A DNA stretch of 64,000 nt from Parcubacteria group bacterium Gr01-1014_8 (GCA_007376385.1 VMGC01000002.1:136372-200371), one strand, 5' to 3'; positions 4,164 to 63,863 are shown, counted from the stretch's first letter. Translations and numbers: made by a program. The notes: generated by a model not told the origin, from the sequence alone.

Positions 4164-4811
4164 CTACAATAAAGAATGCCCGTGAAGGACGATAGGAAGA
4201 ATATCTTCGATTGTGTACACGATGTGGTCCGGTTCGTACGCGACGAGATCAGCGTGGGGTCCGTATGAAATACCAATAGTCCCGACACCGGCGGCTTTTC
4301 CCGCTTGGATGTCGACTGGCGTATCGCCGACAAACCACGCGTCTTTCGCCTCTACATCTACCGCTCGGAGGGCTGCAGACACGTGTTCCGGGTCTGGCTT
4401 GGCTCGAGTGACATCATCTTGAGACAGCAAGGCATCAAACATGCTCACTATTTTTACGTGTTGCATGGTGGCGATGGACGATTTTCTCATACGATTTGTC
4501 ACTGTTGCCAGCTTGATGCCCTTGTCTTTAAGCGTCTGCAGCGTTTCTTTTACGTTTGGAAATATCATTACTAACTGAAGATTTTTTTCTTGAAAATCGC
4601 GATGCGCTTGCATAAGCCGCAGGGCATCTTTTTCCGGGAACAGCATTTCATAGTTCTCTCTCAGCGTTTTACCCTGGCTTGCGAGAAGCACTGCAGTTGC
4701 CCGTGAAATAGGCGCTCCTTCTTCAGTGGTAACATGCTCGTAAGCACGAATAATGTACTCGTACGTATCAAGCAGAGTCCCATCGACATCAAAAAGTACT
4801 GCTTTTGTCAC
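4164..4811 (-). CDS. HAD-superfamily hydrolase, subfamily IA (phosphoglycolate phosphatase / beta-phosphoglucomutase-like)
   Basis: LFDVDGTLLDT motif I, VTNR motif II, GDTPVDIQAGKAAG motif IV. Confidence 0.75.
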   Translation of the reverse strand: MTKAVLFDVDGTLLDTYEYIIRAYEHVTTEEGAPISRATAVLLASQGKTLRENYEMLFPEKDALRLMQAHRDFQEKNLQLVMIFPNVKETLQTLKDKGIKLATVTNRMRKSSIATMQHVKIVSMFDALLSQDDVTRAKPDPEHVSAALRAVDVEAKDAWFVGDTPVDIQAGKAAGVGTIGISYGPHADLVAYEPDHIVYTIEDILPIVLHGHSLL

Positions 4812-20280: not shown

Positions 20281-20332
20281 AAGCTATGGTGGTACCAATG
20301 AGGAGCGAAAAACCATGAGATACTAGATCCTC

Positions 20333-20986
20333 ATGAAAACGATTTATTTTGTGAGGCACGGTGAGACTGAAGGGAATAAAGGTCATTTTTTTCAAGGACC
20401 GGATACTCCGCTTACTGATAAAGGCCGCGCGCAAGCGGCGTTTATTGCCGAACGCGTCTCGAAGCTTCCCATAGAGGTGATATTGTCGAGCGAAATGGAG
20501 CGTGCCAAAGATACAGCGGAACATATTTCCCGCAGCACTGGAAAGTTAGTCGAATTTTCCAAGTTTCTGTTTGAACGAAGAATTCCAAGTGTGCAGGTTG
20601 GATCACGGCATAATTCGGAAGAAATGAGGCATGTCTCGCGCGAGGTCATTGCAAATTTTGGGAAACCAGGCGGACGATATTCGGATGAAGAAAATTTTGA
20701 CGATCTCAAAGAACGTGCCCGGGATGCTCTCAATGAACTCGCAGAGCGACCGGAGAACCATATTGTTGCCGTTACTCACGGATTTTTTCTCCGTGTCATT
20801 CTAGCGTATGCGCTTTTCGATGAGAAATTGACACCCGAAATATGCGTCGCATTCTTAAAGGGCGGGCGTGTTGCCAATACGGGACTTACCATTCTTAGAT
20901 ACAAGCATGAAGACCACGAATACTTTGGAAACTCAGAGAACGGATGGGAGTTTTGGGTCTGGAACGACCATGCGCATTTGGGATAA
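20333..20986 (+). CDS. Histidine phosphatase family protein (phosphoglycerate-mutase-like)
   Basis: RHGETEGN catalytic motif; VTHG downstream. Confidence 0.75.
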   Translation: MKTIYFVRHGETEGNKGHFFQGPDTPLTDKGRAQAAFIAERVSKLPIEVILSSEMERAKDTAEHISRSTGKLVEFSKFLFERRIPSVQVGSRHNSEEMRHVSREVIANFGKPGGRYSDEENFDDLKERARDALNELAERPENHIVAVTHGFFLRVILAYALFDEKLTPEICVAFLKGGRVANTGLTILRYKHEDHEYFGNSENGWEFWVWNDHAHLG

Positions 20987-23008: not shown

Positions 23009-23045
23009 CCCCAGTACCACAAGCCCTTCGGGCTTGGCTACGGGG
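23009..23045 (+). ncRNA. Conserved 37-nt leader hairpin motif (CCCCAGUACCACAAGCCCUUCGGGCUUGGCUACGGGG) in the pyrB 5' region; a paralogous copy lies in the uvrA leader
   Basis: 7-bp stem CAAGCCC/GGGCUUG with a UUCG tetraloop; compensatory C:G to U:A change in the copy at 53093. Confidence 0.5.
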
Positions 23046-23104
23046 CGAGGTTCATTGCATGAATATACTTGCGCGGGCGTGCAGTCCGTGGAGAAAATAA
23101 TGTT

Positions 23105-24016
23105 ATGCAACATCTGATCGAAACCCAGCAGTTCGATAGAGAAGCTCTTAGCAAATTGTTTGCGCTTGCGACCACTCTTGAGGGGAAGCGCGAAGAATCA
23201 CTCAAAGGCAAGATACTTGCCTCTCTTTTTTACGCACCGTCCACTCGAACGCGGCTTTCATTCGAATCAGCGATGATGCGGCTCGGAGGCAATGTTCTTT
23301 CGATGGAAAATGCAAGCGAATCATCGTCGGCAACAAAAGGCGAGACAATCGAAGACACGATACGCATCGTGGATGATTATGCCGACATTATCGTCCTCAG
23401 ACACACGGAAGTCGGGACTGCGGCGAAGGCGGCAGCTGTCTCGGAAGTTCCCATTATCAATGCAGGAGATGGCATTGGACAACACCCGACGCAAGCGTTT
23501 CTCGATCTGTATACAATAGAGCGCGAAATAGGGCGCACAGACGACTTCCACATTGCATTTGTGGGTAATCTTGCGTATTACCGGACCGCGCGTTCGCTTG
23601 CGTATCTTTTGGGAAAATACAATAAAGTAAAAATGACGTTTGTTTCTGCGCCGGAGCTCCGGATGAAAGATGATGTCAAGGATTATTTGAAGGAAAAAAA
23701 TGTGCATTTTGAAGAAACGGAAGACTTGGAAAGCACGATGAAAGTAGCAGATGTGGTGTATCAAACGCGGGTAGCGGAAGAATGGATACCGAACGAGGAG
23801 GATTACAAAAAACTTCGCGACAAATACGTCATCACGCGCCCAATGACCGACGTAATGAAAGAGGGGGCCATCCTCATTCATCCTCTGCCCCGTGCCGGAG
23901 AAATAGCACCTGAAGTCGACGATTCGCCTCACGCTGTCTACTTCAAACAAGCGGGGTATGGTGTGCTTGTGCGCATGGCGCTATTGAAGCTCTTAGCCAA
24001 TGGCGAGAAGGTGTAA
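23105..24016 (+). CDS. pyrB: Aspartate carbamoyltransferase catalytic subunit
   Basis: STRTRLSFE, HPTQ, HPLPR motifs; the alternative start at 23069 has a GAGG 8 nt upstream. Confidence 0.85.
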   Translation: MQHLIETQQFDREALSKLFALATTLEGKREESLKGKILASLFYAPSTRTRLSFESAMMRLGGNVLSMENASESSSATKGETIEDTIRIVDDYADIIVLRHTEVGTAAKAAAVSEVPIINAGDGIGQHPTQAFLDLYTIEREIGRTDDFHIAFVGNLAYYRTARSLAYLLGKYNKVKMTFVSAPELRMKDDVKDYLKEKNVHFEETEDLESTMKVADVVYQTRVAEEWIPNEEDYKKLRDKYVITRPMTDVMKEGAILIHPLPRAGEIAPEVDDSPHAVYFKQAGYGVLVRMALLKLLANGEKV

Positions 24017-26788: not shown

Positions 26789-27820
26789 CTACCGCGCTCG
26801 CGGGATGCCTCCAGTGTCAACAGACTGCCCGTCAGTGGATAGAGCAGGCTCTGATACCGATGGTTCGCTCGCCGGCGTTCCGCCGGTTCCTTCTGCGCTG
26901 GTCGTCGTTGCTTCGACTATCGAAGGAGTACCCACGGTAGAATTTGTGGATCGGTTTGCTTTTGGTGCAGCCTTTGAGGGCGCACTTGGCACTAGAGGCT
27001 CATTTATTTCAGGTAATTGCTCTGTCTCCTCCATCACACGGGATGGATCCATGGGCTCTTCCTCTGGGAGAGCAGTCTGGATGCCGAGCATCAGACCAGC
27101 ACCGACGAGACCGGCAAGAATGTGCATATATGTGCCTCCGTTGCTCCGAACTGACGCGAGCGCGTGGGGCAAGAGGTCATGCAAGACAACAGACATAAAT
27201 CCTCCGGCGGCTATACCAGAAAATAGTGCGACGATCCAAGTCACTGATGACAGTGTGCTTGCAAGGAAAAAGCCGATGAGAATGGTGGAGGAAACGAGAA
27301 AACTCCGGGTCAGGGCTCCTTTATTGGAATATCCAGCCCCGCGTAGCACAAAGTACTCTGAGACCTCCTGCACCGTCTCATGGAGAACGACGCCGAGCGT
27401 TGCTGCAAGGCCGATGTACCAATTCGTCTCAAAAGCACCCACAAGCAGAATACCGTCCCCAATGTTATGCAGAGCGTCGCTAAAGAGCACGCTACGACCC
27501 TCTATGGGAGTGTGAGTGTGACTATTGTCAACGTCGTGGTGGTGGTGCTTTGTTGGAAAAATATAGTGAATTCCTTCCATAAGCGTTGCACCGATAAGTA
27601 CCGATATGACAGCGACCACCCAGCCGCCTGCGCGTACGGCCTCCGATGCAAGGTCAAATGCGACAAGAACAAACACGCCAGCAGAAAAGGTTGCCAAATA
27701 GGTCAGATATCGTTGCATCCACTGTCCCAGTTTTCCTGCGGAAAAGATGACCCCAATAAGAGATATCAGCATGACAAGAAGCGATGCGAGAAAAGCAGCG
27801 CTCGCAGCTGAAAAGTCCAT
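26789..27820 (-). CDS. ZIP-family divalent metal transporter with an approximately 90-aa Ser/Thr/Pro/Ala-rich C-terminal tail
   Basis: ZIP helices with the HNIGDG...GVVLHE pattern and a His-rich loop (HHHHDVDNSHTH); TACACT lies 10 nt upstream of the ATG. Confidence 0.8.
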   Translation of the reverse strand: MDFSAASAAFLASLLVMLISLIGVIFSAGKLGQWMQRYLTYLATFSAGVFVLVAFDLASEAVRAGGWVVAVISVLIGATLMEGIHYIFPTKHHHHDVDNSHTHTPIEGRSVLFSDALHNIGDGILLVGAFETNWYIGLAATLGVVLHETVQEVSEYFVLRGAGYSNKGALTRSFLVSSTILIGFFLASTLSSVTWIVALFSGIAAGGFMSVVLHDLLPHALASVRSNGGTYMHILAGLVGAGLMLGIQTALPEEEPMDPSRVMEETEQLPEINEPLVPSAPSKAAPKANRSTNSTVGTPSIVEATTTSAEGTGGTPASEPSVSEPALSTDGQSVDTGGIPRAR

Positions 27821-27832
27821 AATGGGTGTGAG

Positions 27833-27939
27833 TGTACCCCATGAGATAAGGACCCGCTATAGGCTATTCACAGGAAGCTACTTTTTGAAAGAAGAATTAC
27901 TCTAGCGAACGCCACCCGGTCTATCTCACGGGGTGTACC
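27833..27939. promoter_or_regulatory. Inverted pair of the TATCTCAYGGGGT(A/G)TAC motif (RC copy at 27833-27847, direct copy at 27923-27939) plus the direct repeat GGCTATTCACAG(G)AAG (27871-27889 and 27961-27977); the left copy doubles as the -10 region of the ZIP gene
   Basis: Read directly; the same motif pair is found at 52979-53085 and 60663-60768. Confidence 0.5.
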
Positions 27940-37524: not shown

Positions 37525-37695
37525 ACCACTCCTTCGGGGTTGGGTGAAAGTCCCAATCGGCGGTATAGCCCGCGAGTTCTTAGGGACACGATTTGGTGAG
37601 ATTCCAAAGCCGACCGTACAGTCGGGATGAAAGAAGGAAGCGAGGCACCCTTGTTGGATGCTTGCGTGGTAACCCCGATGGATCGGGGTTTTTTA
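37525..37695 (+). ncRNA. FMN riboswitch (RFN element) with a terminator expression platform (AACCCCGATGGATCGGGGTTTTTT at 37671-37694)
   Basis: GGGTGAAAGTCCCAATCGGCGGTATAGCCCGCGAG...GATTTGGTGAGATTCCAAAGCCGAC...AGTCGGGATGAAAGAAGG matches conserved FMN aptamer blocks; upstream of the rib operon. Confidence 0.85.
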
Positions 37696-49062: not shown

Positions 49063-49298
49063 GTATGGATAAGCCGGAACAAAAAGGGGGGATTGGCGGA
49101 TATCCGCATACGAGGGGAACGCCGCCTCGAGTTCCTGCTCGCATGGAAGGAAAGGTTCGACAAAAAGGGATACGGCCAGTGAAAAAGAAGAAAAGAGACA
49201 ATAAAGGGTAACCGGAAATACGCTGCCCTTCTGAGCCATCCAGTCGGCGGGTGTTTCCTTTGGATGGCAGTAACAGTGTATATTGTAGTTTCTTAAGT

Positions 49299-51314
49299 AT
49301 GGCAACATTCAAACTCGAATCATCATATAAGCCTGCTGGGGACCAACCGCAGGCAATACAAGCCCTGTACGATGGGCTGAAAAAAGGTAAGCGGGATCAG
49401 ACGCTTCTTGGCGTAACTGGGTCCGGCAAGACGTATACGATGGCGAGTATCATCGAAAAAATCGGCAAGCCAACGCTTGTCATTGCGCACAATAAGACGC
49501 TTGCGGCGCAGCTCGCATCCGAATATCGCGAGTTCTTTCCCACGCATGCGGTCCACTATTTCGTCTCATACTACGACTTCTATCAGCCGGAAGCATATGT
49601 GGCAGTTTCCGATACGTACATAGAGAAGGAAGCGCAGGTAAACGAGGATATCGAACGTTTGCGCCATGCTGCTACGCAGGCACTCTTAACGCGAAAGGAC
49701 GTTATCGTCGTCGCTTCTGTTTCTTGCATTTACGGTCTTGGAAGCCCCATTGAATATGAAAAAGTTAATTTGAAATTGCAGAAGGGAGAAACAATGACGC
49801 GGACAGGACTTACAAGAAAACTCGTATCAATGCATTTTGAGCGAACCCCTGGGGATCTGTCTCCGGGAACATTTCGGCCACTCGGAGCAGCCGTTGAGAT
49901 AATGCCGGCGAATGAGCGAGTCATTTATCGCATCGGCCTCTCGAGCGGAAAAATCGCGAACATCGAGGACATTGACCCGATTACACGTGTTATTAAAGGC
50001 GAAGAAGAAGCTGTATTTATTTTTCCCGCACGCCACTATGTTACGCCGGAGAATGTCGTGGAAGCGGCGCTTGCGGACATTGAGGCTGAACTCGAGGCAC
50101 AATTGAAGCATTTGAACGACGGCGGAAAAATACTTGAAGCGGAACGTTTGAAGCGGCGCACACGGCAAGATCTCACGATGATACGAGAGTTTGGATTTTG
50201 CAGCGGCATCGAGAACTACTCGCGTCATTTTGATAGGCGAAAACCAGGAGAGCCACCTTACACGTTGCTTTCGTACTTCCCGAAAAAGGCGGACGGTACT
50301 CCGGATTTTCTTACGGTCATAGACGAGTCGCACGTGACGGTGCCGCAGATAGGAGCGATGTATGCAGGGGATAGGGCGAGAAAATTGACCCTTATCGAGC
50401 ATGGGTTCAGACTTCCCAGCGCAGTAGATAATCGTCCGCTTAAATTCGAGGAGTTTTTGGAAAATACCGGACAGACGCTGTATACGAGCGCTACGCCATC
50501 TCTGTATGAATTGAATAAAAGCGGGAAGCCAGTCGAAATGATAGTAAGACCGACTGGCCTCTTGGACCCAGAGATACTAGTGAGACCGATAATAGGGAGA
50601 GGAGACTACGAAGGCCAAGTCCGCGATTTCATCAAAGAAGCAGAGGCGGTAACAAAACGAGGCGCGCGGTCGCTAGTGACCGTCCTCACCAAGAAAATGG
50701 CAGAAGACCTTGCGCAATTTCTCGTAGAACGCGGAATAAAAGCGCGCTATGTGCATAGCGACGTCCTTACTATCGAGCGCATTGAGATTCTCACAGATTT
50801 TAGGAAAGGTGTGTTCGACGTCTTGGTAGGTGTGAACTTGCTTCGTGAAGGATTGGACCTCCCTGAAGTTGAGCTGGTGGGAATTTTAGATGCTGATAAA
50901 GAAGGATTTCTTCGCTCGGAAACCTCACTTATACAGACCATGGGTCGCGCCGCACGAAATGTGAATGGACGTGTGCTTCTATACGCAGACAATATTACTG
51001 GCTCAATGGAGCGGGCAATAGGCGAGACGAATCGCCGCAGAGGGGTACAGGCAGAGTACAACAAAAAACACGGCATTACGCCGAAAACGATAGAAAAAAA
51101 GATACGAGATATCACGGGCGATATTGCGAGGGTGCGAGAACGCGCAATTAAGGAGCTAGCGGACATGGATACTGCTGCGTACGGCGGCGATAAGAGGAAA
51201 ATGATAAAGGATAAACGCCGCCAGATGCATGAAGCGGCCGATAGATTGGATTTCGAGACGGCGGCACTGCTGCGCGATGAGATACGCATCCTTGAACACG
51301 GCGTTTCAAAATAA
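49299..51314 (+). CDS. uvrB: Excinuclease ABC subunit B
   Basis: GVTGSGKT Walker A, helicase motifs, C-terminal UVR domain (FETAALLRDEIRILE). Confidence 0.9.
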   Translation: MATFKLESSYKPAGDQPQAIQALYDGLKKGKRDQTLLGVTGSGKTYTMASIIEKIGKPTLVIAHNKTLAAQLASEYREFFPTHAVHYFVSYYDFYQPEAYVAVSDTYIEKEAQVNEDIERLRHAATQALLTRKDVIVVASVSCIYGLGSPIEYEKVNLKLQKGETMTRTGLTRKLVSMHFERTPGDLSPGTFRPLGAAVEIMPANERVIYRIGLSSGKIANIEDIDPITRVIKGEEEAVFIFPARHYVTPENVVEAALADIEAELEAQLKHLNDGGKILEAERLKRRTRQDLTMIREFGFCSGIENYSRHFDRRKPGEPPYTLLSYFPKKADGTPDFLTVIDESHVTVPQIGAMYAGDRARKLTLIEHGFRLPSAVDNRPLKFEEFLENTGQTLYTSATPSLYELNKSGKPVEMIVRPTGLLDPEILVRPIIGRGDYEGQVRDFIKEAEAVTKRGARSLVTVLTKKMAEDLAQFLVERGIKARYVHSDVLTIERIEILTDFRKGVFDVLVGVNLLREGLDLPEVELVGILDADKEGFLRSETSLIQTMGRAARNVNGRVLLYADNITGSMERAIGETNRRRGVQAEYNKKHGITPKTIEKKIRDITGDIARVRERAIKELADMDTAAYGGDKRKMIKDKRRQMHEAADRLDFETAALLRDEIRILEHGVSK

Positions 51315-52392: not shown

Positions 52393-52584
52393 CTACTCCC
52401 GGTCAAAGACCCACACGTACAGTACAAACCAGCCGATGATGGTCCATGCGATGGCAAGATTGGTAAATATGACGCCGCCAGCGTTCGGATGGCGCCGTAT
52501 CAAAGCCAGTATTCCGGGGAAAAAATACACGTATGTAGCCATAGCCACGTAGAGATAAACCATGAAATGCAAAAAAAGCAACAT
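52393..52584 (-). CDS. Superinfection-immunity-like small membrane protein (Imm family), paralog 1
   Basis: FFPGILALIRRHPNAGGVIFTNLAIAWTIIGWFVLYVWVF pattern. Confidence 0.6.
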   Translation of the reverse strand: MLLFLHFMVYLYVAMATYVYFFPGILALIRRHPNAGGVIFTNLAIAWTIIGWFVLYVWVFDRE

Positions 52585-52709
52585 GTTAACGAGTGCCCTG
52601 TTCCACGTAGGTCAATGAGGGCAAACGAACGTGTTACTGATCTGTAAGCGGATTCTACCAGTCCACCCGGGCAAAGGCAATTTTTTCGGTTGCCCATGAA
52701 AAAAATCGG

Positions 52710-52931
52710 CTAATTAGTACTTTGTCTGTCAAATACCCACGCGAACAAGACAAACCATCCAATGATGGTCCAGCCGATGGCGATGTTCGTAAAGAAAATA
52801 CCGCCGGGACTAGAATGGCGCAGAATGACAGCCAATATTGTGGGGAAGAAATACACGAACAACCCTCCCGCAACGTATGCGTATATCATGAGCAATTGTA
52901 ACCACAAAGTCGAAGGTATCAAATAGACCAC
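52710..52931 (-). CDS. Superinfection-immunity-like small membrane protein (Imm family), paralog 2 (GTG start)
   Basis: FFPTILAVILRHSSPGGIFFTNIAIGWTIIGWFVLFAWVF; approximately 60% identical to paralog 1. Confidence 0.6.
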   Translation of the reverse strand: MVYLIPSTLWLQLLMIYAYVAGGLFVYFFPTILAVILRHSSPGGIFFTNIAIGWTIIGWFVLFAWVFDRQSTN

Positions 52932-52978: not shown

Positions 52979-53085
52979 GTATACCCCGTGAGATAAAAAG
53001 GTCTCAAAATTATGCGGCAAGCGCACATGTACTCAAAATTCCTTTTTTTGCCTATAGTCACGGGCTATCTCATGGGGTATACTCG
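52979..53085. promoter_or_regulatory. Inverted pair of the TATCTCAYGGGGTATAC motif (RC copy at 52979-52995, direct copy at 53066-53085, which includes the TATACT -10) between the divergent Imm genes and uvrA
   Basis: Read directly; same architecture as at 27833-27939 and 60663-60768. Confidence 0.55.
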
Positions 53086-53092
53086 TCCGTGT

Positions 53093-53129
53093 CCCCGGTA
53101 CCACAAGTCCTTCGGACTTGACTACGGGG
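53093..53129 (+). ncRNA. Second copy of the 37-nt leader hairpin motif (CCCCGGUACCACAAGUCCUUCGGACUUGACUACGGGG) in the uvrA 5' UTR, followed by a second hairpin (CCCCTCG...CGAGGGG)
   Basis: Paralogous to 23009-23045 with a compensatory C:G to U:A change in the stem. Confidence 0.5.
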
Positions 53130-53173
53130 CAGGTAACCCCTCGGACAAGACGAGGGGCGAGGCTATTTGCATC

Positions 53174-55798
53174 ATGATAGAATCATCAAAAAATTCAGAA
53201 GGGCCAGGCAAGATCATCGTAAAGGGGGCGAGGACGCATAACTTAAAAAATATCAGCGTCGAGATACCTCGTAATAAAATGGTCGTCTTTACGGGGCTCT
53301 CGGGAAGCGGGAAATCGTCGCTGGCATTCGACACAATTTTTGCTGAAGGCCAGCGTAAGTACGTGGAATCGCTTTCCGCTTACGCGAGGCAGTTCTTACG
53401 TCAAATGCAAAAGCCCGATGTTGACGAGATCAGCGGTCTTTCTCCTGCCATCTCTATCGACCAAAAAAGCCGCTCAAATAATCCGCGCTCTACCGTTGCG
53501 ACGATAACGGAAATTTACGATTACCTGCGCGTACTGTACTCGCGTGTCGGACATCCCCACTGTCCCGTCTGCGGCCGAATAGTAAAAAAAATGTCGAATG
53601 AGGAAATTCTTGAGACCGTTTTGAAGGTAGTCGATGCAGCAAAAGCTTCAAAAAATGTCCCCAAGGGTAAGCACACGAAGGGAGTAACGGACGCAAAGGT
53701 ACGCATAACCGCTCCGGTTGTCGTCGGACGAAAGGGTGAATATTACCAGCTTCTGTACGACATGTTGAACAAGGGTTTTGAGAAAGTCATCATCGATGGT
53801 GAGGAGAAATCACTACGTGAGCGCATTGAGCTAAAAAAACATTTCAAGCACGATATAGATGTCGTTGTTGATGAGATATTCGTGAGCGAGTTCAAGGATG
53901 ATGCGAAAGGCTCTCGCGAACGAGCAAGTGAATCCATCGAGCGCGCGCTCCATGAAGCCGAGGGTCTCGTAAAAATAATCGATCCTGAGGGCGGTGCGCA
54001 TATCGTATCCGCAAAATTCATGTGTCCGTATGATGGCTTTTCATTTCCCGAAGTTGAACCTCGGCTTTTTTCGTTCAATTCTCCATACGGAGCCTGTCCC
54101 ACGTGCAATGGCTTAGGAACCAAATATTTTTTTGGAGATGAGCAGTGCGATACATGTCAGGGCGCACGTCTCCGAAGCGAAGCGTTGCATGTGTTTCTTG
54201 GGAGCGAAAAAAAGGAAGGCGCGCGGCAGAATATCGTGCAAGTAACAAGCATGTCTATAGCGAATGCTCGTAAATTCTTCGACGAGCTGGTATTAACGGA
54301 AAAGGAAAAAGAAATATCAAAAGTCGTCATAAAAGAAATAGTAAACCGGCTCCAATTCATGCTTGACGTCGGTATCGAATATCTGACGCTTGATAGACGG
54401 GCAAATACACTCTCTGGCGGCGAAGCGCAACGGATCCGCCTTGCTTCACAGCTTGGGAGCGGGCTTGTGGGTGCGCTCTATGTCCTCGATGAGCCGACCA
54501 TCGGTCTTCACCAAAAAGATAACGACAGGCTTATTGAGACGCTTAAACATCTCCGCGAACTGGGAAATACTGTGCTTGTCGTAGAACATGACGAGGATAC
54601 GATATTTGCCGCCGATTACATTGTTGATCTGGGACCCGGCGCCGGCACGCACGGCGGGGAAATAGTCGTAGCAGGCTGGCTTGAAGAACTCTTGACCGCC
54701 AAGACGAATAAGTCGGGCTCTAGGACCTTGGCGTATCTTCGCGACGAAACTCGGATCGAAATGCCGGAAAAACGACGTACGAACGACAAGGGAAAAATAA
54801 AAATTCGCGGAGCATCAAAATTCAATCTTGAAAAAGTGAATGTAGACGTGCCGCTTGGAAAATTAGTTGTTATCACCGGCGTTTCCGGTAGCGGGAAATC
54901 AACTTTTTTGTACGAAATCATGCATCGGAATTTACTCGCCAGATTCGATAAACGATTTCGAAATGCAAAAACCTACAACGCAGCAGAGTTTACTGGAACG
55001 GAATACCTGGGCCGTTCGATACTCATTGACCAGTCGCCGATAGGCAGGACGCCGCGCTCAAATCCCGCGACCTATACGGGGGCGTTCACGCATATTCGAG
55101 ACATGTTCGCGATGAGCGAAGAGGCGCGTGCGCGCGGATGGGGGCCAGGCAGGTTCAGTTTTAACCGCAAGGGCGGGCGATGCGAAGCGTGCGAAGGGAA
55201 CGGCATGGTCGCCGTTGAGATGCACTTTTTGCCGACGGTGTATGTCACGTGCGATGTGTGCGCAGGAAGACGTTTTATGAAGGAAACGCTTGAGGTGAAA
55301 TTCAAGAAAAAAAGCATACACGATATTTTGAAGATGACCGTCGAGGAAGCGCTTACGTTTTTTACTGACATTCCAGCCATATCAGACCGCCTTAAAACGT
55401 TGAGCAATGTTGGACTTGGTTATCTTCAATTGGGGCAGAGCGCAACGACACTCTCCGGCGGCGAAGCGCAACGCGTAAAAATAGCGTCGGAGTTGTATCG
55501 TCCGCATCAGACAAAAACGATGTACCTCTTGGACGAACCAACCGTCGGACTTCACTATGACGATGTGCAGAAGCTCATCGAAATTCTCCAACGACTCGTT
55601 GAGAGAGGGAACTCGGTAGTCGTTATCGAGCACAATCTTGACGTGTTGAAATCAGCGGATTACATCATTGATATGGGGCCGGAGGGTGGTGCTGGAGGTG
55701 GAAAAATTGTCGCGAAGGGTACGCCGGAGGAGGTATCCAAGACGGAAGGATCGCACACGGGCTACTATTTGCGGCGGGTTTTGAAAAAAAAGAAGTAG
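53174..55798 (+). CDS. uvrA: Excinuclease ABC subunit A
   Basis: Two ABC modules (GLSGSGKSSL, GVSGSGKST), LSGGEAQR signatures, Zn-finger Cys pairs. Confidence 0.9.
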   Translation: MIESSKNSEGPGKIIVKGARTHNLKNISVEIPRNKMVVFTGLSGSGKSSLAFDTIFAEGQRKYVESLSAYARQFLRQMQKPDVDEISGLSPAISIDQKSRSNNPRSTVATITEIYDYLRVLYSRVGHPHCPVCGRIVKKMSNEEILETVLKVVDAAKASKNVPKGKHTKGVTDAKVRITAPVVVGRKGEYYQLLYDMLNKGFEKVIIDGEEKSLRERIELKKHFKHDIDVVVDEIFVSEFKDDAKGSRERASESIERALHEAEGLVKIIDPEGGAHIVSAKFMCPYDGFSFPEVEPRLFSFNSPYGACPTCNGLGTKYFFGDEQCDTCQGARLRSEALHVFLGSEKKEGARQNIVQVTSMSIANARKFFDELVLTEKEKEISKVVIKEIVNRLQFMLDVGIEYLTLDRRANTLSGGEAQRIRLASQLGSGLVGALYVLDEPTIGLHQKDNDRLIETLKHLRELGNTVLVVEHDEDTIFAADYIVDLGPGAGTHGGEIVVAGWLEELLTAKTNKSGSRTLAYLRDETRIEMPEKRRTNDKGKIKIRGASKFNLEKVNVDVPLGKLVVITGVSGSGKSTFLYEIMHRNLLARFDKRFRNAKTYNAAEFTGTEYLGRSILIDQSPIGRTPRSNPATYTGAFTHIRDMFAMSEEARARGWGPGRFSFNRKGGRCEACEGNGMVAVEMHFLPTVYVTCDVCAGRRFMKETLEVKFKKKSIHDILKMTVEEALTFFTDIPAISDRLKTLSNVGLGYLQLGQSATTLSGGEAQRVKIASELYRPHQTKTMYLLDEPTVGLHYDDVQKLIEILQRLVERGNSVVVIEHNLDVLKSADYIIDMGPEGGAGGGKIVAKGTPEEVSKTEGSHTGYYLRRVLKKKK

Positions 55799-55802
55799 TC
55801 TA

Positions 55803-56156
55803 TTAGCCATACCAGTTTTTTGGCGCCTTGCGTGGTTGAGCTGACTGAGTTGAGTCATGTATGTCTACGGGCGCGTTTTTTCTTGCCGTACGGGGCCCGG
55901 CAAAATAAGCCAGCGCCTTCTCAAGTGCTTGCTGCAGGTGTCCGATGGCTTCTTCTCTTGTGCGCAGGCGGCGCGAAGCAAAGTAATCGGACAGGAGCTT
56001 TGCCGAGATGGACGATTCTTTTGCTATGTCATTAATGTTTAGTGTTTTCTGCGAAGACACAATAGCTAATAGTGATCGCGCGACATGAGGGTTCGTAAAA
56101 ATTATGGATTCAAGTGCCTTATGTGGAACAATATTTTCAGTATTTCTATGTTTCAT
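55803..56156 (-). CDS. Hypothetical protein, possible HTH
   Basis: ORF only; convergent with uvrA. Confidence 0.35.
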   Translation of the reverse strand: MKHRNTENIVPHKALESIIFTNPHVARSLLAIVSSQKTLNINDIAKESSISAKLLSDYFASRRLRTREEAIGHLQQALEKALAYFAGPRTARKNAPVDIHDSTQSAQPRKAPKNWYG

Positions 56157-59100: not shown

Positions 59101-59367
59101 CTTTTCCTTTTTAATGACTTTGGTAGCAAATTGTTCAGTGAGAGGGAGAAAATACACTGCATCCGCAAGATTCTTACCCGCCTGCGCGCCGCGCGCGGGC
59201 AGGTCTGTCTGGACTGTTGCAATGTTCGGATTTATAAGAATGACGCGGATGCCTTCTTCCTTGAGAGCTTTTATAGCTTGTGAACCGGAGTAATCAAATT
59301 CGCCAGCCTGGCCGATTTTCAAGCCGCCCGAACCTAGGATGAGAACTGAGCGGATCTTTTTACTCAT
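56164..59367 (-). CDS. carB: Carbamoyl-phosphate synthase large subunit
   Basis: Duplicated ATP-grasp modules, 1067 aa, MGS-like C-terminus. Confidence 0.95.
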   Translation of the reverse strand: MSKKIRSVLILGSGGLKIGQAGEFDYSGSQAIKALKEEGIRVILINPNIATVQTDLPARGAQAGKNLADAVYFLPLTEQFATKVIKKEKPNAILLGFGGQTALNLGLLLAEQGVLSKYKVRVLGTPISTIRDTEDRDLFIKRLAEIDVQTARSKAVRTIQDGIEAAQVIGFPVMVRAGFALGGQGSGIAGDQKELEQKLTEAFSSSPQVLIEEYLLGWKEVEYEVVRDRLDNCITVCNMENVDPMGIHTGESMVVAPSQTLSNEEYHRLRTIAIKTIRHLGVVGECNIQYALHPQTGDYRVIEVNARLSRSSALASKATGYPLAFIAAKLALGFTLPELKNSITGSTIADFEPALDYLVLKVPRWDLNKFENATSRIGTEMKSVGEVMAIGRNFEEVLQKSLRMLSIGAPGFTAQKDAGGKLLEEIKEPTTRRIFALAEALKAGISVKKLHALSKIDPWFLEKMKNISDFERSLSRKDLDKYTMLKAKQLGFSDAQIAKLKKTTEAQIRARRLRFAIRPVVKQIDTLAGEFPAKTNYLYLTYHGTENDIERGSKGIAVLGSGPYCIGSSVEFDWCNVQALKRLRAEKKETIMINCNPETVSTDYDESDRLYFEELSLERVLDIIEFERPQGVVVSTGGQIPNNLALPLYEHGVPILGTSPKNIDRAEDRHEFSKLLDRLGVSQPAWVEATTPIKAANAAEAMGFPVLVRPSYVLSGSAMNVAFDKDSLIKYLQRAVDISSDHPVVISKFVENSREIEIDGVASHGKLAIYAISEHVENAGTHSGDATLVLPPQRTYLETIRRAKEITKAIVKELNITGPLNIQFLAKDNNLMVIECNVRASRSFPFVSKVTGYNFIDIATRALLGKNISAEYRTVELDYVAVKSPQFSYGRIKGADPVSYVEMTATGEVACFGDSYSEALLKSMLAAGFRLPKKNILLSLGGEENKIKLLPAMQKLADMKYRFFGTEHTAAFLEKHGIACMLLHKISEQKEPSVLSVIENRTVDLIINVPAKPLARETADGFVIRRRAVDLNIPLITNRQLAEAFAMALAEQKGNGLKAKEWGEYLS

Positions 59368-60433
59368 ACTTTTTTCTATTTAACTCGTCGATGAATTCGT
59401 CAAAAATCCATGCTGTGTCCGTAGGTCCGGGGGACGCTTCTGGATGAAATTGAACCGAACGCCATGGCTTTGTCTTGTGTCTGATGCCTTCATTGCTGCC
59501 ATCGTTAGCATTGGTAAACCATTCTTCCCAATCTTTCGGCAGTGTCTTTCCGTCAACCGCAAAGCCATGGTTTTGCGACGTGATGTAGCATTTTCCAGGA
59601 TCCGTTACATCGAGTGCAGGTTGATTGTGGGACCTATGTCCGTACTTGAGCTTGTAGGTTTTTGCTCCCGCAGCGAGCGCCAACAACTGATTGCCAAGAC
59701 ACACGCCCAAGATAGTTTTTTTTGCGTTCATTGCTTTCTTAATGTGCTCGATCGTTGGCGCACACATTGTCGGGTCGCCGGGACCATTGGATAGAACAAC
59801 CGCATGGTATTTTTCCTTCGTAAAATCGTAATCCCATGGCACGCGAATGACGGTTGTTTCCTTGCGAGTGAGCGAGCGGACAATATTTTCCTTCATGCCG
59901 CAATCAACCGCGATTATCCGTATAGGCCCTTTTCCATACGTACGTTTCCTGTTCACACTGACGCGTGCAACCAAGTTTTTCTCGTTCGGGTCGAGAAATT
60001 TCCTCGGTTTGTCGTTTTCCGATAATGCGCCGAGCATCACGCCATGTTCGCGAAGTTTTTTTGTCAGCGCCCGTGTATCAACGCCGGAGATGGCAGGAAT
60101 TCCAGATTTTTTCAACCACGAACCGAGAGATTGAACGGCTTTAGCGTGCGAATACTTTTCGCAGTACTCGGAAACGATAAGACCTGCGATGTGAATTTTC
60201 GACGATTCAAAGCACTCTGGACTGGGAACGCCGTAGTTGCCGACAAGCGGGTATGTACAGACAAGTATCTGTCCGGCGTATGAAGGGTCGGTGAGACTCT
60301 CTACGTAGCCGACCATTCCGGTATTGAAAACTACCTCTCCAAATTGACCTCCAGACGGTGTTTTTGCGCCAAAGCTCGTGCCCTCAATGACTGTGCCATC
60401 TTTTAAGAAAAGCTTCATACCGTGATATGCCAT
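59360..60433 (-). CDS. carA: Carbamoyl-phosphate synthase small subunit (glutamine amidotransferase)
   Basis: GVCLGNQ class-I GATase triad motif; overlaps the carB start. Confidence 0.9.
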   Translation of the reverse strand: MAYHGMKLFLKDGTVIEGTSFGAKTPSGGQFGEVVFNTGMVGYVESLTDPSYAGQILVCTYPLVGNYGVPSPECFESSKIHIAGLIVSEYCEKYSHAKAVQSLGSWLKKSGIPAISGVDTRALTKKLREHGVMLGALSENDKPRKFLDPNEKNLVARVSVNRKRTYGKGPIRIIAVDCGMKENIVRSLTRKETTVIRVPWDYDFTKEKYHAVVLSNGPGDPTMCAPTIEHIKKAMNAKKTILGVCLGNQLLALAAGAKTYKLKYGHRSHNQPALDVTDPGKCYITSQNHGFAVDGKTLPKDWEEWFTNANDGSNEGIRHKTKPWRSVQFHPEASPGPTDTAWIFDEFIDELNRKKYE

Positions 60434-60662
60434 AGCTCGAAAGAGAGAAGGCGATCAGAAAAAAGCCCTCTTGGGGAGGGCAGAAAATCAGTCATTTTCA
60501 GGGGGATAGGACCCGCCTTCGCCAAAGGCTTCGACGAGGCGAAGTAAAAAAATACGCCCGAGCGGGCGCTTTCCGAATTCCGGACCTTAGGAGCCATTAA
60601 AAGTGCATTGTATCTGAATTTTTACGGCAGTCAAATCAGCTCGCGGTGGATATCCAGTTTCT

Positions 60663-60768
60663 GTATACCACATGAGATAAATAATTCGCGCCGTAAATCT
60701 GTCAAAATTCATCGCAAAATCGCGTGCATTTCGAAATTGTAATGTCTTTATCTCACGGGGTATACTCG
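60663..60768. promoter_or_regulatory. Inverted pair of the TATCTCAYG(G/T)GGTATAC motif between divergent carA and uvrC (RC copy at 60663-60679; direct copy at 60749-60768 with TATACT 7 nt before the uvrC ATG)
   Basis: Read directly. Confidence 0.55.
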
Positions 60769-60773
60769 CCTTC

Positions 60774-62018
60774 ATGACGAAAGAAGAGCTAAAAAAAATA
60801 AACTTGCCGGATAGTCCCGGGGTATACATGTTTCGGAGGAGCAACAATCATATCCTGTATATAGGAAAGGCGGCGTCACTTCGTGACAGAGTGCGCAGTT
60901 ATTTTGCTTCGGACCTAGCAGAGTCCCGTTCGTCGGCAATCGCTGGAATGGTATCTGATGCGGTGACGGTAACGTGGGAATCGGTGGACACAGTTCTTGA
61001 GGCGCTTATTTTGGAGGCTAACCTCATAAAGAAATATGAGCCTCAATTCAACATAGAACAGAAAGATAATAAAAGCTTCAACTATCTCGTTATTACGAAA
61101 GAGGCGTTCCCGCGGGTCGCTGTTGTTCGCGGACGGGAATTATTTCTTACATGGAACGAAAAAGACATAAAGCACTGTTTCGGACCGTACCCGCACGGAG
61201 GTGCGCTACAGGAAGCCGTAAAGTTGGTACGAAGAATATTTCCCTTCAGAGACAACAAGTGTGTCCCAGCTCCTGTCCAGAAAAAGAAAGGGAAGCCGCC
61301 TAAGCCGTGTTTTAATCGCCAAATAGGTCTCTGTCCTGGAGTATGTACAGGCGAAATGAGTGAAGCAGAGTACAAGTATGTCATCCGAAACATTGTTGAA
61401 CTTTTCTCCGGCGGGATGCGCTCTTTAAAGAGGCGGCTTGAAAAAGAGATGAAGGATGCGTCACGAGCAGAACGTTTTGAAAAAGCGACTGCACTTCACC
61501 GGCAAGTCTCAGCGCTTACTCATATTAGAGACGTTTCGCTTATAAAAGATGAGCACAGGGTCTCGACAGGAGGCCAGTTCCGCATCGAAGCCTATGACGT
61601 CGCACATACCTCAGGTGACGAGACGGTCGGGGTCATGACCGTCGTTGAAGGAGGAGAAATTTACAAAGCAGCGTATCGCATGTTCAAAGTGCGGGAGGCA
61701 AAAAATGACGATACTAAGGCGCTGTCGGAAATCTTAATGAGAAGGCTCGCCCATCCGGAGTGGCAGTATCCGAAACTCATCGTTATCGATGGGGGAAAGG
61801 GACAGCTGAATGCCGCATCTCGAGTTCTCAAAAAAGCAGGTGTATCGATTCCGCTCGTGGCCGTCACGAAAGACGAATTTCATCGTCCCGAAAAAGTGAT
61901 AGGCGACGAGCGCATGGCGCGTGCGTACGAAAAAGAAATTTTGCTGGCGAACAGCGAAGCGCATCGTTTTGCGATACGTTGGCACAGAAAACGTAGACAA
62001 AAGGGCATGGTAGAGTAA
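60774..62018 (+). CDS. uvrC: Excinuclease ABC subunit C, short form (GIY-YIG + UVR + RNase-H-like endonuclease domains; no C-terminal HhH2)
   Basis: GIY-YIG (GVYMF...ILYIGKA), UVR domain (RFEKATALHRQVSAL), endonuclease block IDGGKGQLNAA; only 414 aa. Confidence 0.85.
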   Translation: MTKEELKKINLPDSPGVYMFRRSNNHILYIGKAASLRDRVRSYFASDLAESRSSAIAGMVSDAVTVTWESVDTVLEALILEANLIKKYEPQFNIEQKDNKSFNYLVITKEAFPRVAVVRGRELFLTWNEKDIKHCFGPYPHGGALQEAVKLVRRIFPFRDNKCVPAPVQKKKGKPPKPCFNRQIGLCPGVCTGEMSEAEYKYVIRNIVELFSGGMRSLKRRLEKEMKDASRAERFEKATALHRQVSALTHIRDVSLIKDEHRVSTGGQFRIEAYDVAHTSGDETVGVMTVVEGGEIYKAAYRMFKVREAKNDDTKALSEILMRRLAHPEWQYPKLIVIDGGKGQLNAASRVLKKAGVSIPLVAVTKDEFHRPEKVIGDERMARAYEKEILLANSEAHRFAIRWHRKRRQKGMVE

Positions 62019-63787: not shown

Positions 63788-63863
63788 GGGCCCATAGCTC
63801 AGTTGGTAGAGCACCTCATTTGCAATGAGGGGGTCAGCGGTTCGAATCCGCTTGGGTCCACCA
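63788..63863 (+). tRNA. tRNA-Ala (anticodon TGC), CCA encoded
   Basis: Cloverleaf GGGCCCA/TGGGTCC acceptor stem with the G3:U70 Ala identity pair, TTTGCAA anticodon loop, GGTTCGAATCC T-arm. Confidence 0.9.

What the first reader, a model, noticed from the sequence alone, without database searches (positions are those of the whole stretch)
60663..60768. Same inverted motif pair drives divergent carA and a leaderless uvrC
TATCTCACGGGGTATACT ends 7 nt before the uvrC ATG, so uvrC is probably leaderless. The inverted variant GTATACCACATGAGATA faces carA. The spacer contains TCAAAATTC, which also occurs twice in the uvrA spacer (TCAAAATTA / TCAAAATTC). This adds a second conserved element to the putative regulatory module.
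Basis: seen in the sequence. Interest (0 to 1): 0.5.

Follow-up and report, generated by a model that had tools for sequence, protein, structure and literature searches.

The report
Repeat-borne promoter for leaderless uvrC
The two inverted 17-base motifs between carA and uvrC are one copy of a short inverted-repeat element found throughout Parcubacteria-type (CPR) bacteria: its gene-side arm carries the promoter of a leaderless uvrC, its other arm looks promoter-dead, and the same arms always flank a tiny GIY-YIG nuclease gene elsewhere.

Summary
The 17-mer TATCTCAYGKGGTATAC is far above chance: 6 sites in 64 kb against 0.23 expected, always as three outward-facing pairs.

- **TCAAAATT:** not enriched, and absent from related elements.
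- **Distribution:** a genome scan shows the motif is specific to Patescibacteria. Most copies are inverted pairs with unconserved interiors of about 10, 35 or 71 bp.
- **Leaderless uvrC:** in a third of sites an ORF starts exactly 6-8 nt after TATACT, nearly always ATG. This supports a leaderless uvrC.
- **Asymmetry:** 62 of 75 pairs have exactly one arm with a usable -10 (T at -7). At uvrC this is the uvrC arm. The carA arm reads TATACA.
- **carA:** it has its own TTGACT-N16-TACAAT promoter and a terminator-bearing leader, both conserved in relatives that lack the motif.
- **Not an SOS or uvr regulon:** downstream genes are diverse, and the closest uvrC relatives lack the element.
- **GIY-YIG link:** an 80-86 aa GIY-YIG nuclease gene sits between the same arms in 10 of 10 contexts, including the P3 loop of RNase P RNA. 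A diverged nuclease subfamily has different arms.

Best reading: a GIY-YIG-associated, MITE/REPIN-like repeat that supplies promoters. No description turned up in the full-text library searched.

The parts
60749..60765 (+). Gene-proximal arm TATCTCACGGGGTATAC of the inverted-repeat element
   Evidence: Exact match to the family consensus. The family profile comes from 91 promoter-side arms.
60761..60766 (+). -10 hexamer TATACT for uvrC. The predicted transcription start is at or next to the A of the ATG at 60774.
   Evidence: Direct reading. In 53 of 165 family sites an ORF starts 6-8 nt after this hexamer. 58 of 62 such starts are ATG. T at position 18 tracks the leaderless sites.
60774..62018 (+). 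uvrC, a short 414-aa form, probably translated from a leaderless mRNA
   Evidence: Pfam domains GIY-YIG, UVR and UvrC_RNaseH. There is no upstream in-frame start. The N-terminus aligns with relatives from residue 1.
60680..60748 (.). 69-bp interior of the element. Its length is constrained (class of about 71 bp), but its sequence is not conserved.
   Evidence: Interiors cluster at 8-12, 33-39 and 67-77 bp. They share no sequence, show no excess folding and contain no hidden arm copies.
60663..60679 (-). Distal arm TATCTCATGTGGTATAC. The next base is A, so the hexamer reads TATACA and is predicted not to act as a promoter.
   Evidence: 62 of 75 pairs have exactly one arm with TAnnnT (p=1e-8). 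Distal arms carry C (63%) or A (24%) at position 18.
60702..60709 (+). It is a chance A/T-rich octamer.
   Evidence: Not enriched in the window or in the interiors of other elements.
60607..60634 (-). carA's own sigma-70-type promoter, TTGACT-N16-TACAAT
   Evidence: 10 of 12 consensus positions match. Equivalent promoters precede carA in L019 (TTGACA-N17-TAGAGT) and in L131 (TTGACT...TACAGT), which has no motif.
60434..60606 (-). carA leader. It contains the conserved TTTAATGGCTCC 9 nt after the -10 and two terminator-like hairpins (60554-60569, 60465-60481).
   Evidence: fold z-score -2.6. The same layout occurs in L019.
59360..60433 (-). carA, the carbamoyl-phosphate synthase small chain
   Evidence: Pfam CPSase_sm_chain and GATase.
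52979..53082 (.). Second copy of the element. The distal arm is 52979-52995(-), reading TATACC. The interior is 70 bp. The proximal arm is 53066-53082(+), reading TATACT, and precedes uvrA, whose probable start is 53174 after a leader of about 85 nt.
27832..27938 (.). Third copy of the element. The proximal arm is 27832-27848(-), reading TACACT, 10 nt before the ATG of a ZIP metal transporter at 27820. The interior is 73 bp. The distal arm is 27922-27938(+), reading TGTACC.

Best explanation
Positions 60663-60765 are an ORF-less copy of a short inverted-repeat element family found across Parcubacteria/Paceibacteria-type CPR bacteria. The family has 17-bp arms, GTATACCCCRTGAGATA ... TATCTCAYGGGGTATAC, around an unconserved interior of fixed length.

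**What the element does at this locus**
- The outer end of the uvrC-side arm, plus the next base, forms a -10 hexamer (TATACT). No conserved -35 goes with it.
- RNA polymerase is predicted to start about 7 nt downstream, at the uvrC ATG. uvrC would therefore be made from a leaderless mRNA.
- The carA-side arm is the element's other end. It lacks the essential -7 T (it reads TATACA) and is predicted to be transcriptionally silent.
- carA is transcribed from its own -35/-10 promoter. Its leader carries terminator-like hairpins.

**What probably recognises the arms**
The arms are probably the recognition sequence of a very small (80-86 aa) GIY-YIG nuclease. That gene lies between identical arms in other places and genomes. 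The short copies would then be either non-autonomous derivatives or target sites of that nuclease. They spread, or are retained, at promoters.

**Shown versus inferred**
- Shown: the repeat family and its distribution, the register with start codons, the one-competent-arm asymmetry, carA's separate promoter motif, and the GIY-YIG association with co-varying arms.
- Inferred: the actual transcription start, the inactivity of the distal arm, binding of the arms by the nuclease, and mobility.
For: **Repeat family**
- There are 6 sites in the window against 0.23 expected.
- 83 of the 117 loci returned by a whole-collection scan are Patescibacteria.
- Those loci and the window hold 188 arm sites. 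148 of these lie in divergent pairs, with gaps of 8-12, 33-39 or 67-77 bp.

**Promoter and leaderless start**
- An ORF starts 6-8 nt after position 18 in 53 of 165 sites, where about 2 would be expected.
- 58 of 62 such starts are ATG.
- An A-T-G signal appears at positions 25-27 of the proximal-arm profile.
- All 55 leaderless sites with a TATAC arm have T at position 18. TATACC and TATACA arms never precede such an ORF.
- Genes without the motif in the same genomes also show a TAnnnT peak 6 nt before the ATG, with TG at -15/-14. Window genes show the same pattern.
- The uvrC start register is kept in L019, L130, L131 and L132.

**Asymmetry**
- 62 of 75 pairs have exactly one competent arm (chi-square p=1e-8).
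- Beyond the distal arm lies the 3' end of a co-directional gene in 34 of 57 cases, so that arm usually has nothing to drive.

**carA's own promoter:**

**Not a conserved operator**
- At the syntenic carA|uvrC spacer the element is absent from L130 and L131 (UvrC 61-63% identical). It is present in L019 (59% identical), with an 11-bp interior instead of 69 bp.

**GIY-YIG link**
- The gene lies between the arms in 10 of 10 independent contexts. Seven of these were found through the protein alone.
- Arm sequence also shows up as translated N- and C-terminal extensions in many more homologues.
- The diverged subfamily (P0117, P0120) is flanked by a different repeat, ATCCCGTTARAGAC / GTCTYTAACGGGAT. 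That repeat also exists without an ORF in L040.
- Copies with the same arms form helices inside RNase P RNA genes.
Against: - There are no transcription data, so the start site and the silence of the distal arm are predictions.
- Interiors of copies within one genome share no sequence. This is unlike ordinary MITEs.
- Discrete interior lengths without conserved sequence or folding are not explained by simple transposition. They suggest a protein-geometry constraint instead.
- No unambiguous target-site duplication is visible. GTATAC is a palindrome, so it could be part of the repeat or a duplication. Copies in RNase P RNA lack it.
- No GIY-YIG gene of this family lies in the 64-kb window.
- An 80-aa GIY-YIG domain has no obvious DNA-binding module.
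- Presence or absence at the orthologous site is seen only between genomes about 60% identical in UvrC, not between strains.
Confidence: 0.6

Rival explanations
1. The arms are operators for a conserved global transcription factor. One operator overlaps the -10 and spacer, and an auxiliary inverted operator sits upstream at set distances. The factor represses or activates about 5-10% of promoters, including uvrC, uvrA and a zinc transporter here. The GIY-YIG gene would be a homing endonuclease that merely parasitises these operator pairs.
For: - The 17-mer is extremely conserved while everything around it varies.
- Interior lengths are discrete, with no sequence or structure constraint. This fits protein-protein geometry.
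- Position 8 is never T in both arms of a pair: 0 observed against 7 expected, p=5e-4. This looks like a need for at least one strong site.
- Some orthologous genes carry the element in several genomes, for example dnaE in L049 and L097 and a VirD4-like gene in four loci.
Against: - The three length classes are not in helical phase: centres are about 27, 52 and 88 bp apart.
- The target genes have no functional theme.
- The element is absent from the closest uvrC relatives.
- Sites are all-or-none rather than graded in strength.
- The arms co-vary with the GIY-YIG subfamily.
- The arms occur inside RNase P RNA genes, where an operator makes no sense.
Confidence: 0.22
2. A bidirectional promoter pair drives carA one way and leaderless uvrC the other. 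The pair and TCAAAATT together form a regulatory module shared by uvr genes, in the manner of an SOS-like regulon.
For: - The pair occurs upstream of both uvrA and uvrC in this window.
- Both arms end in a TATA-rich hexamer.
- Five of 75 pairs elsewhere do appear to drive leaderless genes on both sides.
Against: - The carA-side hexamer is TATACA, and carA has its own conserved promoter.
- The third pair serves a ZIP transporter.
- Downstream genes elsewhere include dnaE, pheS, hisS, secretion ATPases and rnhB.
- uvrB in the window (49251-51314) has no motif.
- No GAAC-N4-GTTC-type box lies near the uvr genes.
- TCAAAATT is not enriched.
Confidence: 0.05
3. The pair works at the RNA level. Read-through from an upstream gene transcribes both arms. 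These pair into a 17-bp stem that terminates, insulates or is processed (for example by RNase III). Promoter activity would be secondary.
For: - In 34 of 57 cases the distal arm sits after a co-directional upstream gene, and often only a few nucleotides past its stop codon.
- The same arms clearly form helices in RNase P RNA.
- Short-interior copies extend into perfect hairpins.
Against: - At uvrC, uvrA and the ZIP gene in this window, no upstream co-directional gene reads into the pair.
- The commonest arm combination gives an A-C mismatch in the sense RNA, and the A-U combination never occurs.
- Loops of 35-71 nt are unstructured.
- No U-tract follows the stem.
Confidence: 0.1

Closest known systems
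Correia (CREE/NEMIS) elements of Neisseria, which are MITEs with outward promoters
   Same: Both are short, multi-copy intergenic elements bounded by inverted repeats and come in discrete size classes. Both are often found 5' of genes. Their ends supply functional promoters, and one drives gonococcal uvrB (review PMC3184786, which cites Black 1995, Snyder 2009 and Siddique 2011).
   Different: - The arms here are 17 bp, and whole elements are only about 42-110 bp.
- Interiors are unrelated between copies.
- The promoter serves leaderless mRNAs.
- A candidate cognate enzyme (GIY-YIG) exists, whereas none is known for Correia.
- A TA duplication cannot be shown here.
- This family spans many genera rather than one.
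REP/REPIN sequences and their RAYT transposases
   Same: In both, inverted doublets predominate over singlets and have characteristic spacing. The repeats flank a small cognate gene. The repeat sequence differs between enzyme lineages. Clusters and tandem arrays occur (PMC3116915; here).
   Different: - The flanked gene is a GIY-YIG nuclease, not a Y1/HUH transposase.
- Only the arms pair; the interiors do not fold.
- Copies sit in register with start codons and act as promoters, rather than lying after genes.
Free-standing GIY-YIG homing endonuclease genes, and the GIY-YIG insertions in CPR rRNA genes
   Same: A GIY-YIG ORF is inserted at the tip of a helix of a conserved structural RNA gene, here the P3 loop of RNase P RNA. 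GIY-YIG ORFs in non-intron insertions of CPR rRNA genes are reported in PMC11270868.
   Different: - The protein is only the 80-aa catalytic domain and has no separate DNA-binding domain.
- It is always bracketed by a specific inverted repeat.
- That repeat also exists in many ORF-less copies at promoters.
Extended -10, -35-independent promoters that give leaderless mRNAs, as in Actinobacteria and Deinococcus (from general knowledge)
   Same: The -10 TAnnnT ends 6-8 nt before an ATG. There is no Shine-Dalgarno sequence and no conserved -35. Ordinary genes of these genomes show TGnTAnnnT in the same register.
   Different: Positions -24 to -13 are an invariant TATCTCAYGGGG instead of TGn. They belong to a repeated element with a mirrored upstream copy.

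Membership tests
Sigma-70-type -10 promoter for a leaderless mRNA | A TAnnnT hexamer ends 6-8 nt before the start codon | tested here: met
   TATACT at 60761-66 and ATG at 60774. The register holds family-wide in 53 of 165 sites.
Sigma-70-type -10 promoter for a leaderless mRNA | ATG start preference and no Shine-Dalgarno sequence | tested here: met
   58 of 62 starts are ATG. CGCCTTC at 60767-73 contains no SD-like run.
Sigma-70-type -10 promoter for a leaderless mRNA | Transcription starts at the start codon | not testable with these tools
   This needs 5'-end mapping.
Sigma-70-type -10 promoter for a leaderless mRNA | A -35 element at 16-18 bp | tested here: inconclusive
   TTGTAA lies at 18 bp. 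The family profile shows only a faint TTGAA (information content 0.25 or less).
LexA/SOS-type DNA-damage operator | A palindromic or direct-repeat box of a known LexA type | tested here: not met
   The 17-mer is asymmetric. No GAAC-N4-GTTC-type site lies near uvrA or uvrC.
LexA/SOS-type DNA-damage operator | Targets are enriched for repair genes and conserved at orthologous genes | tested here: not met
   Targets are diverse. The motif is absent upstream of uvrC in L130-L141. uvrB in the window has none.
MITE (Correia-like) | Terminal inverted repeats, many intergenic copies per genome | tested here: met
MITE (Correia-like) | Target-site duplication | tested here: inconclusive
   GTATAC (or TATA) at both ends is palindromic, so duplication and repeat cannot be told apart. 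Copies in RNase P RNA lack it.
MITE (Correia-like) | Copies share internal sequence | tested here: not met
   Interiors are unrelated even within the window.
MITE (Correia-like) | Presence or absence at orthologous sites | tested here: met
   In the carA|uvrC spacer the element is present in the window and L019 and absent in L130 and L131. This is seen only at about 60% protein identity.
REPIN/RAYT system | Repeats flank a cognate gene and differ between enzyme lineages | tested here: met
   10 of 10 GIY-YIG contexts are flanked by the arms. Subfamily B has different arms.
REPIN/RAYT system | The cognate enzyme is a Y1 (HUH) tyrosine transposase | tested here: not met
   The flanked gene is PF01541 GIY-YIG. 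One Y1_Tnp gene lies next to the L163 copy, but it is not flanked by the arms.
REPIN/RAYT system | The whole doublet folds as a hairpin | tested here: not met
   Interiors have fold z-scores near 0.
Free-standing GIY-YIG homing endonuclease | GIY-YIG catalytic domain | tested here: met
   PF01541 is recorded on all listed homologues.
Free-standing GIY-YIG homing endonuclease | A separate DNA-binding domain that gives site specificity | tested here: not met
   The proteins are 80-86 aa, and the last residues of the longer forms are encoded by the arm itself.
Free-standing GIY-YIG homing endonuclease | Cleaves ORF-less target sites | not testable with these tools
   This needs biochemistry.

The most novel reading that the evidence does not exclude
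The 17-bp arms are the recognition sequence of an 80-aa GIY-YIG nuclease. Nuclease and arms together form a previously undescribed kind of mobile or self-maintaining DNA in CPR bacteria. Its ORF-less copies have become portable, -35-independent promoters for leaderless genes. This includes uvrC and uvrA here, and copies also form helices of RNase P RNA. The fixed interior lengths of about 10, 35 and 71 bp would reflect how the nuclease or RNA polymerase engages two arms.
Probability: 0.35. Interest if true: 0.85.

Novelty: new variant of a known kind. Interest (0 to 1): 0.62.

Why it matters
CPR/Patescibacteria are mostly uncultured, and almost nothing is known about how they start transcription. 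This element gives three things:
- a precise, testable promoter sequence for leaderless genes in this lineage;
- an example of repeat elements supplying promoters to housekeeping and repair genes in very small genomes;
- a candidate new enzyme-repeat partnership (GIY-YIG plus inverted arms), comparable to RAYT/REPIN, that would also account for insertions in RNase P RNA genes.

It also warns annotators against two errors: reading these motifs as SOS-type operators, and extending ORFs through the arms. uvrA was extended this way from 53174 back to 53012, and many GIY-YIG entries carry arm-encoded tails.

Tried and rejected
- **Rfam, whole window and carA-uvrC spacer.** There is no RNA family in the spacer. 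The window holds only an FMN riboswitch and a tRNA.
- **LexA-type box search.** Counts are at chance level, and no site lies near the uvr genes.
- **TCAAAATT enrichment.** It is not enriched. A-tract hexamers such as AAAATC are only marginally enriched.
- **tRNA or ncRNA genes as targets of the promoters.** Only 2 distant tRNAs were found.
- **Viral contigs.** There were 11 single hits and no pairs, which is roughly chance level by my own estimate. The motif is not a phage feature.
- **Hidden degenerate arm copies or secondary structure in the interiors.** None was found.
- **Helical-phase explanation of the three spacing classes.** The class centres differ by about 25 and 36 bp, so they are not in phase.
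- **DnaA box, CRP/FNR, NrdR, Fur, CIRCE and sigma-54 consensus sequences.** I compared these by eye from memory and found no convincing match.
- **T7-like single-subunit RNA polymerase promoter.** I considered it because the motif is long and asymmetric. I rejected it as unlikely because T at -7 and A at -11 behave as in sigma-70 promoters, and housekeeping genes are the targets.
- **Literature searches for the motif, CPR promoters and leaderless CPR genes.** No description of this element turned up. The 2017 Patescibacteria SOS paper could not be read.

Full report
**Observation**

- GTATACCACATGAGATA lies at 60663-60679.
- TATCTCACGGGGTATACT lies at 60749-60766.
- Seven bases follow, and then the uvrC ATG.

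Allowing three mismatches, the 17-mer TATCTCAYGKGGTATAC occurs six times in the 64-kb window. Every copy has at most one mismatch, against 0.23 expected. The six copies form three outward-facing pairs, with arm starts 86-90 bp apart: 27832-/27922+, 52979-/53066+ and 60663-/60749+.

TCAAAATT is present where stated, but it is not enriched. It occurs 8 times against 5.6 expected, and 17 of 100 shuffles do as well.

**Organism and distribution**

The window matches an ENA metagenome contig. Its short 414-aa UvrC and its gene content indicate a Parcubacteria-type CPR bacterium.

Of these, 83 are Patescibacteria (Kaiserbacteria, Nomurabacteria, Paceibacterota, Campbellbacteria and others). The remaining 34 are single matches scattered across unrelated phyla.

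In the Patescibacteria loci plus the window I found 188 sites of the 12-mer core TATCTCANGGGG. Of these, 148 lie in divergent pairs, and the inner gaps cluster at 8-12, 33-39 and 67-77 bp. The interiors share no sequence, fold no better than shuffled sequence and hide no degenerate arm copies. Viral contigs hold only 11 isolated hits.

**The motif contains a promoter for leaderless genes**

- In 53 of 165 sites, an ORF of at least 60 aa begins exactly 6-8 nt after motif position 18. The background is under one per offset.
- 58 of 62 such starts are ATG.
- The aligned proximal arms show an A-T-G signal at positions 25-27. Upstream there is only a faint TTGAA where a -35 would lie.

Positions 13-18 (TATACT) therefore behave as a -10 hexamer whose transcript starts at the start codon.

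This arrangement is general in these genomes. Genes without the motif also show a sharp TAnnnT peak 6 nt before the ATG, preceded by TG at -15/-14. Many window genes look the same.

For uvrC itself:
- The N-terminus aligns from residue 1 with relatives.
- A -10-like hexamer sits 6-8 nt before the start in L019 (a GTG start), L130, L131 and L132.

**The pairs are asymmetric, and carA has its own promoter**

Of 75 pairs, 62 have exactly one arm with a TAnnnT hexamer, 5 have two and 8 have none (p=1e-8). Every TATAC arm that is followed by a leaderless ORF has T at position 18. Partner arms carry C (63%) or A (24%) there. In 34 of 57 asymmetric pairs, the region beyond the partner arm is the 3' end of a co-directional gene, so that arm usually has nothing to transcribe.

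In the window:
- The competent arms face uvrC, uvrA and a ZIP transporter.
- The partner arms read TATACA on the carA side, TATACC on the side of two small Imm_superinfect genes, and TGTACC.

carA has a good TTGACT-N16-TACAAT promoter at 60634-60607. It is followed by a leader of about 170 nt with two terminator-like hairpins. The same promoter-plus-leader layout precedes carA in L019, and in L131, which has no motif at all. The claim that the inverted copy drives carA is therefore not supported.

**It is not a repair regulon**

- The genes behind the motif include dnaE, uvrC, pheS, hisS, VirD4/VirB4-like ATPases, rnhB, SAH hydrolase and pilC, with few recurrent families.
- uvrB in the window carries no motif.
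- No Gram-positive-type LexA box lies near the uvr genes.
- carA and uvrC remain divergent neighbours in L130 and L131 (UvrC 61-63% identical), but the motif is absent there. It is present in the slightly more distant L019 (59% identical), with an 11-bp interior instead of 69 bp.

Near-identical copies with patchy presence at orthologous sites are typical of repeated elements. They are not typical of conserved operators.

**Link to a GIY-YIG nuclease**

In three motif-ascertained loci (L084, L090, L113) the arms are about 255-290 bp apart and enclose an 86-aa GIY-YIG gene. The last codons of that gene are the arm itself.

The protein has 1689 close homologues, all short. I retrieved seven further contexts through the protein alone: L155, L157, L159, L160, L163, L164 and L166. 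In every one, the left arm ends 8-13 nt before the start codon. The right arm overlaps or immediately follows the stop codon.

Many database entries reveal the arms as translated extensions:
- N-terminal ...PREI... or ...PHEI... corresponds to CCCCRTGAGATA.
- C-terminal LSHGV*, AISRGI* or YLTG corresponds to TATCTCAYGGGGTA read in the three frames.

A diverged subfamily (P0117, P0120; Wolfebacteria, locus L168) is flanked by a different repeat, ATCCCGTTARAGAC / GTCTYTAACGGGAT. An ORF-less pair of that second repeat occurs in L040. Arm sequence therefore tracks the nuclease lineage.

In L157, L159 and L163 the GIY-YIG gene sits in the P3 loop of RNase P RNA. There the P3 stem is CCCCGUGAGAUA/UAUCUCACGGGG, directly 5' of AGGAAAGUCC. 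The L163 gene has two more hairpins with the same arms and an identical 12-nt loop. GIY-YIG ORFs in non-intron insertions of CPR rRNA genes have been reported (PMC11270868). None of my searches of the held library found the arms or their promoter role described.

**Interpretation**

I conclude that 60663-60765 is an ORF-less member of this repeat family. Its proximal arm provides, or has been built around, the -10 of a leaderless uvrC. Its distal arm is the element's other end and is predicted to be silent.

The most likely binder of the arms is the small GIY-YIG nuclease. The short copies would then be either its non-autonomous derivatives or its target sites.

The closest known analogues are:
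- the Correia elements of Neisseria, which are MITEs with discrete size classes and end-borne promoters, one of which drives uvrB (PMC3184786);
- REPIN/RAYT systems, in which inverted doublets flank, and co-evolve with, a dedicated enzyme (PMC3116915).

This family differs from both in four ways. The enzyme family is different. The interiors are unrelated between copies. The interior lengths are fixed without any sequence or folding constraint. The copies sit in strict register with leaderless start codons.

**What remains unexplained**

- The three interior length classes are not explained by helical phasing.
- Position 8 is never T in both arms of a pair (0 observed against 7 expected).
- The conserved GTATAC could be part of the repeat or a duplication of a -10-like target. 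The flank statistics are compatible with insertion into TGnTATACT-type promoters but do not prove it.
- A global transcription factor that uses the arms as paired operators remains a serious rival.

Noticed in passing
window 53097-53135 and 23009-23046: The uvrA leader and the region upstream of a pyrB-like carbamoyltransferase gene (23069-24016) share a hairpin, CCCC(R)GTACCACAAG(Y)CCTTCGG(R)CTTG(R)CTACGGGG. The stem carries a compensatory T-A to C-G change. GGGGCGAGG and an ATG follow. There is no Rfam match, and it was not found in any other fetched locus.
   Followed up: partly
window 60434-60606 (minus strand); L019 3050-3215; L131 upstream of 3001: The carA leader has a conserved TTTAATGGNCTCC exactly 9 nt after the -10. 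A GC hairpin with a T7 run follows, and then a second terminator-like hairpin. This may be an attenuator or a leaderless leader peptide for pyrimidine or arginine control.
   Followed up: partly
L157 1343-2071, L159 5976-6425, L163 2118-2759: The RNase P RNA genes of several Parcubacteria carry an 80-95 aa GIY-YIG ORF inside the P3 loop. L163 has two further hairpin insertions with the same arms and the identical loop TCGCGCAAGCGC. L157 has one with a 72-nt interior. Rfam scores fall below the gathering threshold because of these insertions.
   Followed up: partly
L168 9979-10259; L040 4988-5107: A second inverted-repeat family, ATCCCGTTARAGAC / GTCTYTAACGGGAT, flanks a diverged GIY-YIG subfamily. 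It also occurs without an ORF. In both loci a GA dinucleotide lies on each outer side.
   Followed up: partly
L114 5800-5970; L065 2866-3070; L025 805-1010; L115 12-40: There are tandem arrays and back-to-back composites of the element. These include the 28-bp palindrome TATCTCAYGGGGTAYACCCCRTGAGATA.
   Followed up: no
L163 1341-1970: A Y1_Tnp (IS200/RAYT-type) transposase gene lies directly next to the GIY-YIG/RNase P RNA locus in a Zambryskibacteria genome.
   Followed up: no
window 53012-53173: The mechanical uvrA ORF runs back through the repeat element to an ATG at 53012. Comparison with the usual UvrA N-terminus suggests the real start is the ATG at 53174, after a structured leader of about 85 nt.
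   Followed up: partly
window 20305-20335: A partial inverted arm, AACCATGAGATACT, lies 8 nt before the ATG at 20333. Read inward, the arm resembles an extended -10 (TGaGATAnT). The same inward-facing sequence, TGAGATAAT, precedes the GIY-YIG genes by 6-8 nt.
   Followed up: partly
window, many gene starts (e.g. 62514, 18555, 46493, 15033, 55803-56156 minus, 4164-4811 minus): Most operon-first genes have a TGnTAnnnT-type -10 ending 6-8 nt before the ATG and have no Shine-Dalgarno sequence. Leaderless expression therefore seems to be the norm in this organism.
   Followed up: partly
window 37526-37642; 63788-63863; 52393-52931: Three further features:
- an FMN riboswitch ahead of riboflavin genes;
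- a tRNA-Ala;
- two tandem small Imm_superinfect-family membrane protein genes next to uvrA.
   Followed up: no
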